A stretch of DNA of 64,000 nucleotides from a virus (taxonomy: Duplodnaviria; Heunggongvirae; Uroviricota; Caudoviricetes). The DNA is taken from the IMG/VR virus record IMGVR_UViG_3300032167_000010; one strand, 5' to 3'. Positions 22,761 through 33,045 of this stretch are shown piece after piece. The position numbers and the translations under genes are program-made. Under the pieces are notes generated by a model, which did not search any database, had not been told where the DNA came from, and saw only the letters and a program-made list of their open reading frames with translations. Within the stretch, counting starts at the first letter, position 1; the number at the start of each line of letters is the position of its first letter.

Positions 22761-22792
22761 AAAGACCTTTCAAGTAATTGAGAGGTCTTTTC
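22761..22792 (+). terminator. rho-independent terminator
   Basis: aaagacctttc-aagtaattg-agaggtcttt plus T-run. Confidence 0.65.
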
Positions 22793-22796
22793 TTTT

Positions 22797-22806
22797 GCTA
22801 AATTAT
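22797..22806 (+). promoter_or_regulatory. late-type promoter motif (copy 3)
   Basis: ttttGCTAAATTATCTaga 39 nt upstream of ATG 22845. Confidence 0.5.
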
Positions 22807-22844
22807 CTAGATATTAATTCTTGATAAAAGGCGGAACTTGCTAA

Positions 22845-23456
22845 ATGAACTTTAATGATGTATATTCTACACTAGAAACTTTATATGAAGCGAAGAGGGT
22901 AATCCATGATGCAGACATCCTTTACCACTTCACTAACCCGACACCATTCTTAAAGATCTTTAAAGAGGATTGCTTACGCGCAGACGTTCATCTAGACGCA
23001 GTTTGTCTAACCACAGATAAGGACTACCAGATCTACGGGTATCCCTGTGGCATCCAGTTTAGTCGTAGCAAATTAACCCAGGCAGGTTACGATCTAGTTC
23101 CCTTTGATGAATTCGAAGATGACCCAGAATCTAGAGGAGAATCAGAGGAGCGCATCTATGGGAACATTAATAACATGTCTAACTACGTAACTGCCGTCTA
23201 TATAAATTGGGAAAACATCTCATTAGTACAAAGTGCTGAGGGGGACAGAATAGCAGATGCTGTATATGATGAGCAAGGAAATGAAGATGAGACCTATGAC
23301 TTAATGCTAGAAGAATTCAGGTCCTTACTATCAGAACTAAAGGGTAGAGGAATTAGAGTAGTAGAGAAAGGTTACCCGGTGACCGGTGAATATTATTTAG
23401 ATACAGACGGGACTCTTCAGTATGGTCAGATGCCAGCACTTAGCACTGCGAGCTAA
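22845..23456 (+). CDS. hypothetical protein with N-terminal MNFNDVYSTLETLYEAK motif; locally GC-richer
   Basis: ORF track; SD AAAGGCGGAA; N-terminus shared with 52078 and 51302 proteins. Confidence 0.6.
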   Translation: MNFNDVYSTLETLYEAKRVIHDADILYHFTNPTPFLKIFKEDCLRADVHLDAVCLTTDKDYQIYGYPCGIQFSRSKLTQAGYDLVPFDEFEDDPESRGESEERIYGNINNMSNYVTAVYINWENISLVQSAEGDRIADAVYDEQGNEDETYDLMLEEFRSLLSELKGRGIRVVEKGYPVTGEYYLDTDGTLQYGQMPALSTAS

Positions 23457-23474
23457 TTTAGTTAATTAAATATT

Positions 23475-23510
23475 TAAAGACTCTTCTATAAAACGAGGGT
23501 CTTTTATTTT
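23475..23510 (+). terminator. rho-independent terminator
   Basis: aaagactc-ttctataaaac-gagggtcttt plus T-run. Confidence 0.55.
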
Positions 23511-30645: not shown

Positions 30646-31335
30646 ATGACTACTGAGCTTTATATTTTACACGTATTTATATTTATGCTGCTAGGTTTTG
30701 CTTTGCTAGGCTGTCATCATTTTTTATCTAAATATCGTGATCGTCTTAGAGAAGAAGTACAAGCTAAAAAAGATAAAGAAAATAAAAAGGAAAATAAGAC
30801 TATGAAGAAGACTATTGTTGTTAATTTAGCTGGTGCACCTGGTGCTGGGAAGAGCACTGGCGCTGCAAAGATATTTAGTGAACTTAAGATGCTAGGTATT
30901 AACTGTGAACTTGTAGGTGAGTTTGCAAAAGATATAACCTGGGAGCATAATACTACAGCACTTAGCTGTCAGGAATATGTATTCGGAAAGCAGTCTTATC
31001 GTTTAGCTAGATGCAGAAATGACGTAGACGTTATTATTACTGATAGTCCCCTCCCGCTTACTATTATCTATACGCAAGACGAAGCTATTAAGAAACCACT
31101 TACTGATTTGGTTATGGCAGTATTTAATACATATGATAATATTAGCTTCTTTATAAATAGAACTAAGCCTTACAATCCTAAAGGCCGCAATCAGACTATG
31201 GAAGAGAGCGATGCTATTAGCTTAAGAATTAAGGGGCTTTACAAGGAATTAAATATCCCATACATAGAAATTAATGGTGATTCTGCAGGATACGAAAAAG
31301 CTGTTGAATTAATATTAGATAAACTAAATAAATAA
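30646..31335 (+). CDS. P-loop NTPase / kinase-like protein with N-terminal TM helix
   Basis: Walker A GAPGAGKST; DVIITDSP Walker-B-like; hydrophobic N-terminus. Confidence 0.6.
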   Translation: MTTELYILHVFIFMLLGFALLGCHHFLSKYRDRLREEVQAKKDKENKKENKTMKKTIVVNLAGAPGAGKSTGAAKIFSELKMLGINCELVGEFAKDITWEHNTTALSCQEYVFGKQSYRLARCRNDVDVIITDSPLPLTIIYTQDEAIKKPLTDLVMAVFNTYDNISFFINRTKPYNPKGRNQTMEESDAISLRIKGLYKELNIPYIEINGDSAGYEKAVELILDKLNK

Positions 31336-31341
31336 GAAAAT

Positions 31342-31380
31342 ATTTACCAATTATTTTTAGAATAGTTGGTAATTTTTATT
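31342..31380 (+). terminator. rho-independent terminator (twin of 32605-32645)
   Basis: atttaccaattatt-tttaga-atagttggtaat + T5. Confidence 0.65.
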
Positions 31381-31439
31381 TAATGCACTGTATTATATAA
31401 TATAAAACTTAAACAAATAAAAATTATAAAGGAGTATTT

Positions 31440-32591
31440 ATGGTAGGTTTTATTTTTGGTATCATTATTTTACTAGCCGGCATTATTACCGGCATATGTT
31501 TAACTACTTGTAAAAGAGAAGTTGAAACAAAAGAGTATGTACTAGACGAGAACGGCTCGCCTATTAGAAACAATTGGGGTGAACCTAAGTACATAACCAA
31601 GACAAGTGTTAAAAAGCCTTATAAAAAGTATAGTGGCTTTGCTTATGCTGCAGGCATCTTTTTAGGTATCTTATTAACGTTCTTTGGCTGCATGGCTTCT
31701 GTATCTACCGGAAACACTGGTGTCGTAACTACTTTTGGTAAAGTTGAAAATTATACTTTAGAAGCAGGTTTTCACCTTAAAGCACCTTGGCATACGGTTA
31801 CTGAAATGGACAATAGAGTGCAGAAGACTACGGTAGAATTAAGCTGCTTTAGCTCTGACATTCAAGAAGTGTCTATGAAGTATACCCTTAATTATCAAAT
31901 CGATAAAGCTAACGCACAAGAGATTTATAGAACGGTAGGTGTTAATTATTATGCTACTATCGTAGAGCCTAATATTGCTGAGGCAGTTAAAGTTGCTACT
32001 GCACAGTACACTGCAGAACAATTGGTACAAACGAGAAGTAACCTTGCGAAAGATATTGAGACGTTGTTAGAAGAAAACTTAGGACGTTTTAATATTAAAG
32101 TATCTTCTACTGCTATCGAGGATATGGACTTTACTGATGCATTTACTAACGCAGTTGAAGCTAAGCAAGTAGCTGAACAAAAGAAAAAACAAGCCGAAAT
32201 CGAACAAGCTCAAGCATTGGCTCAAGCAGAAAATGATAAGAAGATTGCAGAGACTAATGCAAAAGCAAATGCAGAAGTAGCTAAGATTCAAGCTGAGGCT
32301 GATATGGAAGTTGCGAAGATTGCTGCTGACTCTGCTGAATATCAAGGTAAGAAAGAAGCCGCTATTGCTCTTCAACGTTTAGCAAGTATCAATGGTTGGA
32401 CTGTAGTTATGGATGAAGAAACAGGACTTAATAAACTCTATAAACCTGATGGTTCTGAAGTAAATGAAGAAGAATTAAAAGCCGGCGCTGAAAGACTTAT
32501 TGAATATTACTATACTCAACAGTGGGATGGTAAGTTACCTGAAACTGTTCTTGGTTCAGACGATAACCTTCTAATTGGCGTAGGAAATTAA
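31440..32591 (+). CDS. SPFH/Band-7 (prohibitin/stomatin/HflKC-like) membrane protein
   Basis: two N-terminal TM segments, SPFH core, Ala/Glu/Gln/Lys-rich coiled-coil tail; SD AAAGGAGTA. Confidence 0.8.
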   Translation: MVGFIFGIIILLAGIITGICLTTCKREVETKEYVLDENGSPIRNNWGEPKYITKTSVKKPYKKYSGFAYAAGIFLGILLTFFGCMASVSTGNTGVVTTFGKVENYTLEAGFHLKAPWHTVTEMDNRVQKTTVELSCFSSDIQEVSMKYTLNYQIDKANAQEIYRTVGVNYYATIVEPNIAEAVKVATAQYTAEQLVQTRSNLAKDIETLLEENLGRFNIKVSSTAIEDMDFTDAFTNAVEAKQVAEQKKKQAEIEQAQALAQAENDKKIAETNAKANAEVAKIQAEADMEVAKIAADSAEYQGKKEAAIALQRLASINGWTVVMDEETGLNKLYKPDGSEVNEEELKAGAERLIEYYYTQQWDGKLPETVLGSDDNLLIGVGN

Positions 32592-32604
32592 TAATATAAT
32601 TTAA

Positions 32605-32645
32605 ATAAATTACCAGTTATATTAATGTAACTGGTAATTTTTATT
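32605..32645 (+). terminator. rho-independent terminator (twin of 31342-31380)
   Basis: aattaccagttat-attaat-gtaactggtaatt + T5. Confidence 0.7.
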
Positions 32646-32703
32646 ATACTTATATTGTATTATATATTGTAATAACTTAAAAGGAAATGGCTATATGTAG
32701 AAA

Positions 32704-33045
32704 ATGCACCTAATAAAATTAGAAGAATTAAACGACTGGGTAGAACGTTTAGCTAGCCCTGGTGAGGTTGCTATCTACTATGAGAGCAGAGCAGATATAC
32801 TATATGTATATAAGTATGAAGGCTCAGACGAAAATCCACAGTGGTTACGCTTTGTAAAAGAATTACCTGTATTAGAAGAGCTTCCTACGGTAAAAGGTAA
32901 ATGGATACCCGTAAGCCAGAAACCTGGAGTTCACGCAGGTATGAAGTGTTCTATTTGTAAAGCTAAAATTTCTTATAAAGATTATTACGGCGGCCAGCAT
33001 AACTATTGTTATAAATGTGGTGCCAAGATGACTAAGGAGGATTAA
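32704..33045 (+). CDS. Zn-ribbon protein
   Basis: ORF track; CSICK..CYKCG. Confidence 0.5.
   Translation: MHLIKLEELNDWVERLASPGEVAIYYESRADILYVYKYEGSDENPQWLRFVKELPVLEELPTVKGKWIPVSQKPGVHAGMKCSICKAKISYKDYYGGQHNYCYKCGAKMTKED

What the first reader, a model, noticed from the sequence alone, without database searches (positions are those of the whole stretch)
31342..32645. SPFH/prohibitin gene as an autonomous cassette flanked by twin terminators
Seen in sequence: the SPFH/Band-7 gene (31440..32591) is bracketed by two near-identical terminators (ATTTACCAATTATT…ATAGTTGGTAAT+T5 at 31342-31380; AATTACCAGTTAT…GTAACTGGTAATT+T5 at 32605-32645). Each is followed by a TGTATTATATA(AT) class-2 promoter. Established knowledge: SPFH proteins scaffold membrane microdomains and usually partner with NfeD proteins or FtsH. 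They are rare in phages and recur in some bacterial defence or abortive-infection contexts. Inference: a moron-like module, possibly for superinfection exclusion, membrane remodelling during infection, or control of lysis timing.
Basis: partly seen in the sequence, partly recalled or inferred. Interest (0 to 1): 0.6.

Follow-up and report, generated by a model that had tools for sequence, protein, structure and literature searches.

The report
Portable prohibitin-like gene in jumbo phage
A ~222-kb virus of gut Clostridia carries a host-derived membrane-scaffold (prohibitin-like) gene with its own promoter and terminator; relatives keep, move, swap or break this gene, and the "twin terminators" are ordinary genome punctuation, not insertion scars.

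Summary
The sequence features are real. ORF 31440-32591 is an SPFH/Band_7 protein closest to prohibitins. Stable hairpins sit at 31344-31372 and 32607-32640. Each is followed by TGTATTATATA. "Near-identical" overstates the hairpin similarity, which is about 81% with one gap.

The upstream hairpin is the terminator of the preceding AAA_28 gene. It follows that gene in every relative, with or without SPFH after it. The promoter, 5'UTR and downstream hairpin travel with the SPFH gene in relatives where the gene sits elsewhere.

Both hairpins belong to a genome-wide family of terminator+promoter modules. 17 of 21 hairpins in the window have a promoter motif after them. The modules resemble the PeSL cassettes of T4-type phages. 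The AAA_28/SPFH joint lies inside the shared promoter core.

The gene is widespread in this phage group, with more than 120 sequence clusters. Its position varies: three arrangements, and no copy in the matching interval of one relative. It is mosaic between lineages and naturally disrupted in two lineages. Its base composition is ordinary. It matches no PADLOC defence-system model and has no NfeD partner.

Verdict: a relocatable, dispensable accessory transcription unit, a new member of known kinds. The biochemical role is unknown. A membrane cage acting on a host protein such as FtsH is the best guess. Interest is modest.

The parts
30646..31335 (+). Upstream neighbour: an AAA_28 nucleoside/nucleotide-kinase-like gene. 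It is not part of the SPFH unit. The likely true start is 30802.
   Evidence: Pfam AAA_28, E 1.3e-14. About 120 homologs at 75-91% identity are ~180 aa long and align from window position 30802.
31344..31381 (+). Hairpin T1 plus T-run: the intrinsic-terminator-like element of the AAA_28 gene.
   Evidence: Folding energy -11.7 kcal/mol, z = -4.3. A hairpin plus class-2 promoter follows AAA_28 in L017, L021, L022, L025 and L029, whether or not SPFH comes next. There is a compensatory A-T to G-C change between the window and L017.
31388..31405 (+). Class-2 promoter-like core (C)TGTATTATATAATATAA. The recombination joint between the AAA_28-type module and the SPFH unit lies here.
   Evidence: Exact motif. 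Alignment A4 shows the sequence 5' of and through the core matches the AAA_28 modules of L025/L029, while the sequence 3' of it matches the SPFH 5'UTRs of L021-L025. Promoter activity is inferred, not shown.
31406..31439 (+). Conserved A-rich 5'UTR with a Shine-Dalgarno sequence (AAAGGAG at 31428-31434).
   Evidence: Conserved with SPFH genes at other genomic positions (L021, L022, L023, L025).
31440..32591 (+). SPFH/prohibitin-like membrane protein, 383 aa. Layout: TM1 residues 3-23, basic loop, TM2 residues 65-87, SPFH domain about 88-231, long helix 233-318, small C-terminal domain with a WDGKLP motif.
   Evidence: Band_7 E 6e-35. phrog_200 E 3.6e-44. Solved-structure sequence matches to prohibitin 1/2, E down to 7e-18. 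AlphaFold2 model pLDDT 67. Foldseek top hits are prohibitin, erlin, HflK/C-FtsH, stomatin and QmcA. Hydropathy and charge.
31576..31579 (+). G4 tract. A G3 allele in natural strains shifts the reading frame after codon 46.
   Evidence: L013, L014 and L020 differ from the window by this single deletion across 1368 nt. The G3 allele is on about 10 contigs (P0003, P0044) and the intact allele on 19.
32607..32645 (+). Hairpin T2 plus T-run: the SPFH gene's own terminator-like element.
   Evidence: Folding energy -16.1 kcal/mol, z = -5.3. An orthologous hairpin with compensatory changes follows SPFH in L017 and in L021/L023, where the gene is at a different position.
32655..32672 (+). Class-2 promoter-like core for the next gene (32704-33045).
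   Evidence: Exact TGTATTATATA at 32656-32666. Same module layout as the other hairpin+promoter units.

Best explanation
The locus is a monocistronic transcription unit: a class-2 promoter, a conserved A-rich 5'UTR, a prohibitin-like SPFH ORF, and an intrinsic terminator (T2). It lies in the variable, small-ORF-rich region of a ~222-kb phage of gut Clostridia.

The upstream hairpin T1 is the terminator of the preceding AAA_28 gene. T1 and T2 resemble each other because both belong to one family of composite hairpin + T-run + TTGTATTATATA modules that punctuate this genome. These modules resemble the PeSL cassettes of T4-type phages.

Homologous recombination inside the shared promoter core joined the SPFH unit to the AAA_28 module in the window/L017 sub-lineage. 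That junction is shown by alignment; the mechanism is inferred. The same kind of exchange would explain why relatives carry the unit at other positions, lack it in this interval, or carry mosaic alleles.

The protein derives from a chromosomal Clostridia SPFH gene (shown: 54% identity). It has two added features: an N-terminal extra TM helix plus loop, and a ~21-residue insertion.

Inferred function: it inserts into the host membrane with the SPFH domain on the outer face and oligomerises into a ring or cage, like prohibitin and HflK/C. That cage would enclose or restrict a host membrane protein, most plausibly the FtsH protease, during early to middle infection. It would give a conditional benefit and is not essential for the phage.
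For: Ownership of the signals:
- A hairpin plus promoter follows AAA_28 in all lineages.
- The SPFH genes of L021/L023 keep the promoter core, the 5'UTR and a T2-type hairpin at another position.
- The hairpins show covariation.

Module family:
- Nine modules align at 72% column identity.
- 17 of 21 hairpins are followed by a promoter motif, and three motif classes occur on the + strand only.
- The junction is chimeric at the promoter core.
- The PeSL precedent is described in PMC2839356 and PMC4122927.

Mobility:
- Arrangement A: AAA_28-SPFH (window, L017).
- Arrangement B: SPFH follows the 137-aa gene about 4.5 kb downstream of AAA_28 (L021-25).
- Arrangement C: DnaE-SPFH-Macro-PARP (L018, L030, L032).
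- L180 has none in the interval.
- The tree is incongruent with flanking genes and the ORF is mosaic.

Dispensability:
- The G4-to-G3 frameshift is on about 10 contigs against 19 intact.
- L025 has a 20-nt deletion in TM2.

Protein:
- Band_7, prohibitin sequence matches, fold matches to cage-forming SPFH complexes.
- Two TM segments with a net-basic loop.
- Chromosomal Clostridia homologs.
Against: - No experiment or expression data exist. Promoter activity, terminator activity and timing are inferred from motifs.
- The class-2 motif lacks a clear -35 element and does not fit the canonical TGnTATAAT spacing.
- T1 and T2 stay more alike within a genome (especially L017) than mere family membership requires. 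That could mean gene conversion or a specific shared function.
- Mosaicism complicates the direction of transfer. The window's ORF core resembles the DnaE-adjacent type, while its UTR and T2 resemble the L021 type.
- No exact empty site with the same two flanking genes directly joined was found.
- The FtsH link rests only on analogy with HflK/C and prohibitin. The protein scores far below the HflC equivalog cutoff (37 against 134 bits), and no partner gene is linked.
- The structural model has only moderate confidence (pLDDT 67, pTM 0.32).
Confidence: 0.6

Rival explanations
1. Classical moron. A foreign promoter-gene-terminator module was recently inserted between AAA_28 and gene 32704-33045, and the twin terminators mark the insertion boundaries, for example by duplication of the target terminator.
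For: - The gene has its own promoter and terminator.
- The two hairpins are the most similar pair in the window.
- L180 has window-like gene order but no SPFH.
- The SPFH allele is closer to phages with unrelated context, at 82-83%, than to the closer genomic relatives, at 58-65%.
Against: - T1 is present after AAA_28 in all lineages regardless of SPFH.
- All of about 30 near-identical genomes and the 89% relative L017 carry the gene at the same site.
- GC, GC3 and codon usage are ordinary.
- No direct-repeat scars exist beyond the shared module.
- The gene is present across at least three lineages of the group.
- The genes that follow AAA_28 in L180 are not those that follow SPFH in the window.
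Confidence: 0.15
2. The protein acts in superinfection exclusion or inter-phage competition. A membrane cage on the outer face of the membrane blocks DNA entry by other phages.
For: - The protein is membrane-anchored, with its bulk predicted to lie outside the cytoplasm.
- It sits among early/middle accessory genes, and L018 has an early-type promoter with a TTGACA -35 element.
- It is dispensable and polymorphic in nature.
- The surface insertion is mosaic between lineages, as might be expected under an arms race.
Against: - No PADLOC model matches.
- The SPFH core is extremely conserved, at 85-100% in 40-residue windows, between phages whose other shared genes are about 50% identical. That suggests a conserved host target rather than diversifying selection.
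- Literature searches found no SPFH protein shown to act in exclusion.
Confidence: 0.15
3. The protein controls lysis timing. The SPFH ring sequesters or stabilises holin or antiholin, or reinforces the membrane until lysis.
For: - An endolysin (Amidase_2) lies 1.3-5 kb downstream of SPFH in L018 and L032, and in the same block in L021.
- SPFH scaffolds organise membrane proteins (established knowledge).
Against: - No lysis gene is adjacent in the window.
- The linkage to the amidase is loose and not conserved across arrangements.
- No holin was identified next to SPFH in any locus.
Confidence: 0.08
4. The similar T1 and T2 stems are specific binding sites for a phage RNA- or DNA-binding regulator, for example an antiterminator, that gates transcription into and out of SPFH.
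For: - The stem word ATTACCAGTTAT occurs with at most 2 mismatches at all four arms, and is otherwise at chance frequency in the window.
- Within L017 the two hairpins are even more alike.
Against: - The stem sequence drifts freely with compensatory changes between lineages: ACCAG/CTGGT becomes GCTGG/CCAGC-type. This is typical of selection on structure, not on sequence.
- L006, L021 and L025 have dissimilar hairpins at the two positions.
Confidence: 0.05

Closest known systems
PeSL (promoter-early stem-loop) cassettes of T4-type phages (Arbiol et al. 2010, PMC2839356; Comeau et al. 2014, PMC4122927)
   Same: - Short composite terminator/promoter modules are repeated many times, concentrated in variable regions rich in small ORFs.
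- They flank single accessory genes.
- Recombination within the shared motif joins otherwise unrelated sequences. Here the joint lies in the TTGTATTATATA core.
- They also flank some genes of known function.
   Different: - A different phage group: a ~222-kb phage of Clostridia, not a T4-like myovirus.
- A different motif. The stem-loop always lies upstream of the promoter rather than overlapping it.
- Three motif classes take part, not only early sigma-70-type promoters.
- Mini-circles, promoter activity and terminator activity have not been demonstrated here.
Morons of lambdoid phages
   Same: - The gene has its own promoter and terminator.
- It is non-essential.
- Its position and presence vary among relatives, with signs of horizontal exchange.
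   Different: - No exact empty site was found.
- Composition is not atypical.
- The gene is widely conserved in the phage group.
- There is no sign of a temperate lifestyle, so expression from a prophage is not relevant.
- The upstream terminator belongs to the neighbouring gene.
HflK/C-FtsH complex of E. coli and the mitochondrial prohibitin PHB1/2 complex
   Same: - Same domain order: N-terminal membrane anchor, SPFH domain, very long helix.
- The SPFH domain is predicted on the non-cytoplasmic side.
- These are the best sequence and fold matches among solved structures.
   Different: - A single gene rather than a paralog pair.
- Two TM segments in the phage form.
- It scores far below the HflC equivalog cutoff.
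- Sequence identity to prohibitin is low (19-24% in the Foldseek alignments).
- Association with a protease has not been tested.
Other phage-encoded SPFH proteins: PHROG 200; Faecalibacterium phage FP_Toutatis 'prohibitin family protein'; T4-like 44RR/Aeh1/RB43; RaK2-like and Vi01-like phages
   Same: - A Band_7 gene in large phages, with unknown function.
- FP_Toutatis is 44% identical over 63% of the protein.
   Different: - This clade has the long two-TM form (~383 aa) with a C-terminal insertion.
- It is very abundant in gut metagenomes.
- Some of the other phage proteins are annotated as lipoproteins or were detected in virion mass spectrometry.
Chromosomal Clostridia SPFH gene (L153 3860-4855; L162 3902-4870)
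   Same: - 54% identity from the SPFH domain to the C-terminal W(D/N)G(K/E)LP motif.
- A stand-alone gene without an NfeD partner.
   Different: The host form has one TM segment and lacks the ~21-residue insertion. It sits among transporter and YidC-like genes, not in a phage.

Membership tests
SPFH / Band 7 superfamily | Match to the SPFH domain profile above the curated threshold | tested here: met
   PF01145: 121.3 bits against a cutoff of 23.6, covering profile positions 2-176 of 176.
SPFH / Band 7 superfamily | N-terminal membrane anchor, alpha/beta SPFH fold, then a long coiled-coil helix | tested here: met
   Hydrophobic segments at residues 3-23 and 65-87. The model shows an alpha/beta domain at 128-231 and a helix at 233-318. 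Foldseek probability is 1.00 to prohibitin, erlin, HflK/C, stomatin and QmcA. Model confidence is moderate.
SPFH / Band 7 superfamily | Assembly into a large ring or cage oligomer in the membrane | not testable with these tools
   Only a monomer model was made. This needs biochemistry or cryo-EM.
HflK/HflC protease modulators | Score above the HflC/HflK equivalog cutoff | tested here: not met
   TIGR01932 hflC: 37.3 bits against a cutoff of 134.4. NF008259: 20.4 against 427.
HflK/HflC protease modulators | Two adjacent paralogous genes (K and C) | tested here: not met
   A single SPFH gene is present in every arrangement examined.
HflK/HflC protease modulators | Physical association with FtsH | not testable with these tools
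   Inferred by analogy only.
SPFH-NfeD operon (e.g. QmcA-YbbJ) | Adjacent NfeD-family partner gene | tested here: not met
   The neighbours in the window are AAA_28 and a 113-aa protein with no family match above cutoff. In relatives the neighbours are Macro-like, KH_2 or DnaE genes. The chromosomal homologs also lack NfeD.
Moron | Own promoter and terminator | tested here: met
   Shown by motif and structure only: a class-2 core at 31389-31399 and hairpin T2, both conserved with the gene in other contexts.
Moron | Absent from an otherwise collinear relative, with the flanking genes directly joined | tested here: inconclusive
   The gene is present in about 30 near-identical contigs and in L017. 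L180 has window-like order and no SPFH in the interval, but different genes follow AAA_28. L036 was uninformative.
Moron | Base composition or codon usage distinct from the surrounding genome | tested here: not met
   GC is 0.372 against 0.343 +/- 0.034. GC3 is 0.260 against 0.270 +/- 0.061. Codon-usage KL is 0.13, typical for genes of 250 aa or more.
PeSL-like regulatory cassettes | Repeated composite stem-loop + promoter motif concentrated in variable regions | tested here: met
   17 of 21 hairpins are followed within 70 nt by one of three + strand-only motifs. The modules can be aligned across genes and genomes.
PeSL-like regulatory cassettes | Recombination joints located inside the motif | tested here: met
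   Alignment A4 shows the window/L017 module switching from AAA_28-type to SPFH-type sequence at the invariant TTGTATTATATA core. This is a single junction, and the mechanism is inferred.
PeSL-like regulatory cassettes | Demonstrated promoter and terminator activity, and mini-circle formation | not testable with these tools
   Needs reporter assays and PCR or sequencing of circular junctions.
Known anti-phage defence systems | Match to a PADLOC-DB v2 model | tested here: not met
   No match at E <= 0.01 for the SPFH protein or five neighbouring proteins.

The most novel reading that the evidence does not exclude
The phage prohibitin-like protein is a switchable host-takeover factor. It would form a cage on the outer face of the Clostridia membrane that captures a specific host complex (FtsH or a phage-receptor/DNA-entry complex). 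The frequent G4/G3 frameshift allele would be a population-level ON/OFF or long/short-isoform polymorphism kept by fluctuating selection. Terminator-promoter modules would act as the vehicle that moves the unit between co-infecting jumbo phages.
Probability: 0.1. Interest if true: 0.6.

Novelty: new member of a known kind. Interest (0 to 1): 0.3.

Why it matters
Phage-encoded SPFH proteins are annotated again and again in large phages, yet no function is known (PMC7760394, PMC13239085). This clade may be a useful entry point for three reasons:
- The gene is abundant in gut and rumen metagenomes.
- It has a clear cellular ancestor in Clostridia.
- Natural intact and frameshifted alleles occur in otherwise near-identical genomes, which amounts to a ready-made knockout comparison.

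Separately, the locus is a clean example of gene shuffling mediated by terminator-promoter modules outside the T4-like phages. This suggests that PeSL-type modular exchange is a more general way for large phage genomes to rearrange accessory genes. Neither point changes current understanding. Both extend it.

Tried and rejected
1. Megablast of 5 kb around the gene against 50,697 annotated phage records found no match. No cultured close relative exists.
2. IMG/VR searches seeded on the two flanking genes found nothing. I first read this as "neighbours not conserved". That was wrong. It was an artefact of exact-peptide seeding, because the large protein search found about 120 AAA_28 clusters at 75-91% identity.
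3. I considered whether the stem word is a genome-wide repeat family. It is not. Only the four arms at T1/T2 match well, and the overall count is at chance level.
4. I considered a simple deletion between two promoter cores in an L021-type ancestor as the origin of the AAA_28-SPFH joint. I rejected it as the sole event, because w44652 lies downstream of SPFH in the window but upstream in L021-25, and the genes downstream of SPFH differ.
5. I tested whether the 141-aa gene after SPFH in L030/L032 is an NfeD partner. It is not; it is a weak Macro-domain match paired with the PARP gene.
6. I tried cross-matching IMG/VR contigs that carry AAA_28 with those that carry SPFH, to show absence. This was inconclusive, because the scan needs exact peptide seeds and missed the SPFH gene in L045.
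7. L036 as an empty site was uninformative, because the expected position falls at the end of the fetched locus.
8. An Rfam search of 31200-32800 found nothing meaningful.
9. No tRNA genes are in the window.
Full report
**Observation**

The window is phage DNA with all genes on the + strand. ORF 31440-32591 encodes a 383-aa protein. It matches Pfam Band_7/SPFH at E 6e-35 and PHROG 200.

Two hairpins flank the ORF.
- T1 (31344-31372) folds at -11.7 kcal/mol, z = -4.3.
- T2 (32607-32640) folds at -16.1 kcal/mol, z = -5.3.
- Both are followed by T-runs.
- Each is followed 15-16 nt later by an exact TGTATTATATA (31389, 32656). These are two of only three exact copies in the window.

So the described features exist at the stated coordinates.

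The two hairpins share TTACCA[A/G]TTA and TGGTAATTTTTATT, but overall similarity is about 81% with one gap. Their score is the best of 136 terminator pairs, yet only slightly above the next pairs (20 against 18, 18, 17). A palindrome-preserving null gives p of about 0.003. The stem word is not a genome-wide repeat.

**Genome punctuation**

My scan for AT-rich hairpins found about 21 hairpin+T-run elements in 64 kb. 17 of them are followed within 70 nt by one of three motifs that occur on the + strand only:
- class 1, ACAGTTTAC followed by a TATAAT-type -10 element: 13 copies between 2 and 18 kb;
- class 2, TGTAT[AT][AT]TAT: 8-10 copies;
- class 3, GCTAAATTAT: 8 copies.

Being bracketed by terminator+promoter modules is therefore the normal state of genes in this region. 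ORF 22845-23456 is another single gene between two similar hairpins.

**Which phage this is**

Exact-protein look-ups place the window in a ~222-kb genome, on contigs of 221,766 and 222,944 bp. The genome recurs in dozens of metagenome assemblies. All of these carry the SPFH gene between the same neighbours.

No cultured phage is similar at the DNA level. Strong Shine-Dalgarno sites and sigma-A-like class-1 promoters suggest a Firmicutes host. SPFH relatives occur in 405 places in GTDB genomes, nearly all gut or rumen Clostridia MAGs. Together these point to a Clostridia host (inference).

**Who owns which hairpin**

Relatives were retrieved through the SPFH protein and through the upstream AAA_28 protein.

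A hairpin plus class-2 promoter follows AAA_28 in every lineage, whether the next gene is SPFH (window, L017) or something else (L021, L022, L025, L029). T1 is therefore the AAA_28 terminator.

In L021-L025 the SPFH gene lies about 4.5 kb further downstream, after 14-16 small ORFs. There it still carries three elements:
- the TGTATTATATA core;
- a conserved 5'UTR (AAACCTTAAAAACAAAA...AAAGGAG);
- a hairpin clearly orthologous to T2 (AAATTGCTGGTTATTTT...AATAATCAGCAATTTTTATTATA).

Six alignable hairpins give 95.6% paired cells and compensatory double changes in 5 of 15 pairs. Sliding the register abolishes the signal. The unit that belongs to SPFH is thus promoter + UTR + ORF + T2.

**The junction**

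Alignment A4 shows that the window/L017 intergenic module is chimeric.
- From the hairpin through TGTATTATATAATATAAA it matches the AAA_28 modules of L025/L029.
- From AAC-TTAAACAAA onward it matches the SPFH 5'UTR of L021-L025.
- The switch falls inside the invariant TTGTATTATATA core.

All nine modules compared align at 72% column identity. This is the pattern described for PeSL cassettes in T4-type phages. There, repeated terminator/promoter motifs in hyperplastic regions serve as sites of homologous exchange that shuffle accessory genes (PMC2839356, PMC4122927).

**Is it a moron?**

Evidence for mobility:
- Three arrangements exist: AAA_28-SPFH (window, L017); 137-aa gene-SPFH-KH-domain gene (L021-25); and DnaE-(0-2 small ORFs)-SPFH, followed by a 41-aa ORF in L018 and by Macro-like-PARP genes in L030 and L032.
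- L180 keeps the window's large-scale order (w29545/w29899 ... AAA_28 ... w42398 ... w44652-w45017). It has no SPFH within 10 kb on either side of AAA_28.
- Only 1 of 19 IMG/VR loci anchored on AAA_28 has any SPFH gene within 10 kb.
- The SPFH tree nests window+L017 among the DnaE-adjacent alleles (74-83% identity) and far from L021/L023 (62-63%). The flanking genes say the opposite: AAA_28 is 76-78% and w29545 is 80% in L021-25, and w19636 is 79.5% in L025 against 63% in L001.
- The ORF is mosaic. Window against L017 is 85-100% identical in 40-residue windows up to about residue 300, then 52-67% over residues ~300-360, where the window matches L001/L018/L030 at 82-97%.

Evidence against a recent foreign insertion:
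- No empty site exists in near-identical genomes or in L017.
- Composition and codon usage are ordinary.
- The gene is common: more than 120 clusters at 90% identity, each 70-93% identical to the query, on contigs up to 222 kb.
- The stand-alone layout is not general. Among 47 IMG/VR SPFH loci, 2 have hairpins on both sides, 14 have one downstream, and 28 show neither signal.

I conclude that this is a relocatable accessory unit, long resident in this phage group, and not a freshly acquired moron.

**Dispensability**

L013, L014 and L020 are identical to the window across 1368 nt except for one G missing from the G4 run at 31576-31579.
- This truncates the first ORF at 51 aa.
- It leaves a 338-aa ORF (TTG start) that retains TM2 and the SPFH domain.
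- The frameshift allele is on about 10 contigs from JGI, Logan and ENA samples, against 19 with the intact gene.

Independently, L025 has a 20-nt deletion inside the TM2 coding segment. The gene can evidently be lost or shortened in nature.

**The protein**

- Among solved structures, the best sequence matches are prohibitin 1/2, with E down to 7e-18.
- The HflC equivalog model scores far below its cutoff.
- An AlphaFold2 model (pLDDT 67) shows a TM helix at 2-23, a beta-hairpin loop, a TM helix at 62-89, an alpha/beta domain at 128-231, one helix spanning 233-318, and a small C-terminal beta-hairpin plus helix.
- Foldseek places it with prohibitin, erlin, HflK/C-FtsH, stomatin, QmcA-YbbJ and flotillin, all of which form rings or cages.
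- The loop between the two TM segments has 10 K/R against 6 D/E. By the positive-inside rule this puts the SPFH domain outside the cytoplasm, as in HflK/C (inference).

Chromosomal Clostridia contigs of 685 kb and 505 kb carry a 322-331-aa stand-alone homolog among transporter and YidC-like genes. The one compared directly, L153 on the 685-kb contig, is 54% identical. The phage form adds TM1 plus the loop and a ~21-residue insertion. That insertion is the same segment that is mosaic between phages.

No NfeD partner occurs in any context, and no PADLOC model matches.

**Function**

Nothing here shows what the protein does. Papers that mention phage SPFH genes say the same.

My best guess, with about 30% confidence in this part, is a membrane cage that restricts a host membrane protein such as FtsH. 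It rests on analogy with the two closest solved systems and on the very high conservation of the SPFH core between otherwise divergent phages. Superinfection exclusion and lysis timing remain open.

**Verdict**

The sequence features are real, but the "twin terminators" are ordinary punctuation. T1 belongs to the neighbouring gene. The interpretation as an autonomous unit is right, while "moron" and "defence" are at best partly right. In novelty terms this is a new member of known kinds: a phage SPFH gene, and PeSL-like modular shuffling. Interest is modest.

Noticed in passing
window 31576-31579 (also L013 10795-11945, L014, L020): A one-base deletion in a G4 run splits the SPFH gene into 51 aa plus 338 aa (also called as 299 aa). 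It occurs on about 10 independent contigs, against 19 with the intact gene, in otherwise identical sequence. The shortened product would resemble the single-TM host form.
   Followed up: partly
L025 11405-12540: An independent 20-nt deletion inside the TM2 coding segment disrupts the SPFH gene of a 234-kb relative.
   Followed up: partly
L001 9916-9930 and 11125-11139: A perfect 15-bp inverted repeat (TTGTTGTAATGGTAT / ATACCATTACAACAA) tightly brackets the SPFH ORF. It is unique within the 21-kb locus. The upstream arm overlaps the promoter-like -10 region, and this locus has no hairpin terminators. It is unexplained.
   Followed up: partly
window 32330-32530 (protein residues ~300-360): The ORF is mosaic. 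This segment is only 52-67% identical to the otherwise 90% identical L017, but 82-97% identical to L001/L018/L030. It coincides with a ~21-residue insertion that is absent from the chromosomal Clostridia homolog.
   Followed up: partly
window, whole (e.g. 2217, 3875, 8518, 9172 for class 1; 9985, 22164, 54744, 62325 for class 3): Three promoter-like motif classes occur on the + strand only: ACAGTTTAC (13 copies, 2-18 kb), TGTAT[AT][AT]TAT (8-10 copies) and GCTAAATTAT (8 copies, including sites upstream of the tail-fibre region). They probably mark temporal classes.
   Followed up: partly
window 22761-23504: ORF 22845-23456 (203 aa) is another single gene bracketed by two similar hairpins (AAAGAC...GGTCTTT stems). 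This shows the twin-terminator layout is not unique to SPFH.
   Followed up: no
window 30646-30801: The AAA_28 ORF is 229 aa, but about 120 homologs are ~180 aa and align from position 30802. The extra 52 N-terminal residues are hydrophobic. This may be a fused or mis-extended small membrane ORF.
   Followed up: no
L030 8178-9836; L032 8171-9826: In DnaE-adjacent relatives, SPFH is followed by a Macro-like 141-aa gene and a PARP-domain gene of about 406 aa. This is a putative ADP-ribosylation writer/eraser pair.
   Followed up: no
L153 3860-4855; L162 3902-4870: Chromosomal Clostridia contigs (685 kb and 505 kb) carry a stand-alone SPFH homolog (54% identity for L153, the one compared directly) among transporter and YidC-like genes. 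This is the likely cellular source of the phage gene.
   Followed up: partly
L018 9930-9975: In L018 the SPFH gene is preceded by a class-1-like promoter with a TTGACA -35 element (AAAACAGTTGACAA...TGTATTATAAC). Expression timing may therefore differ between lineages.
   Followed up: no
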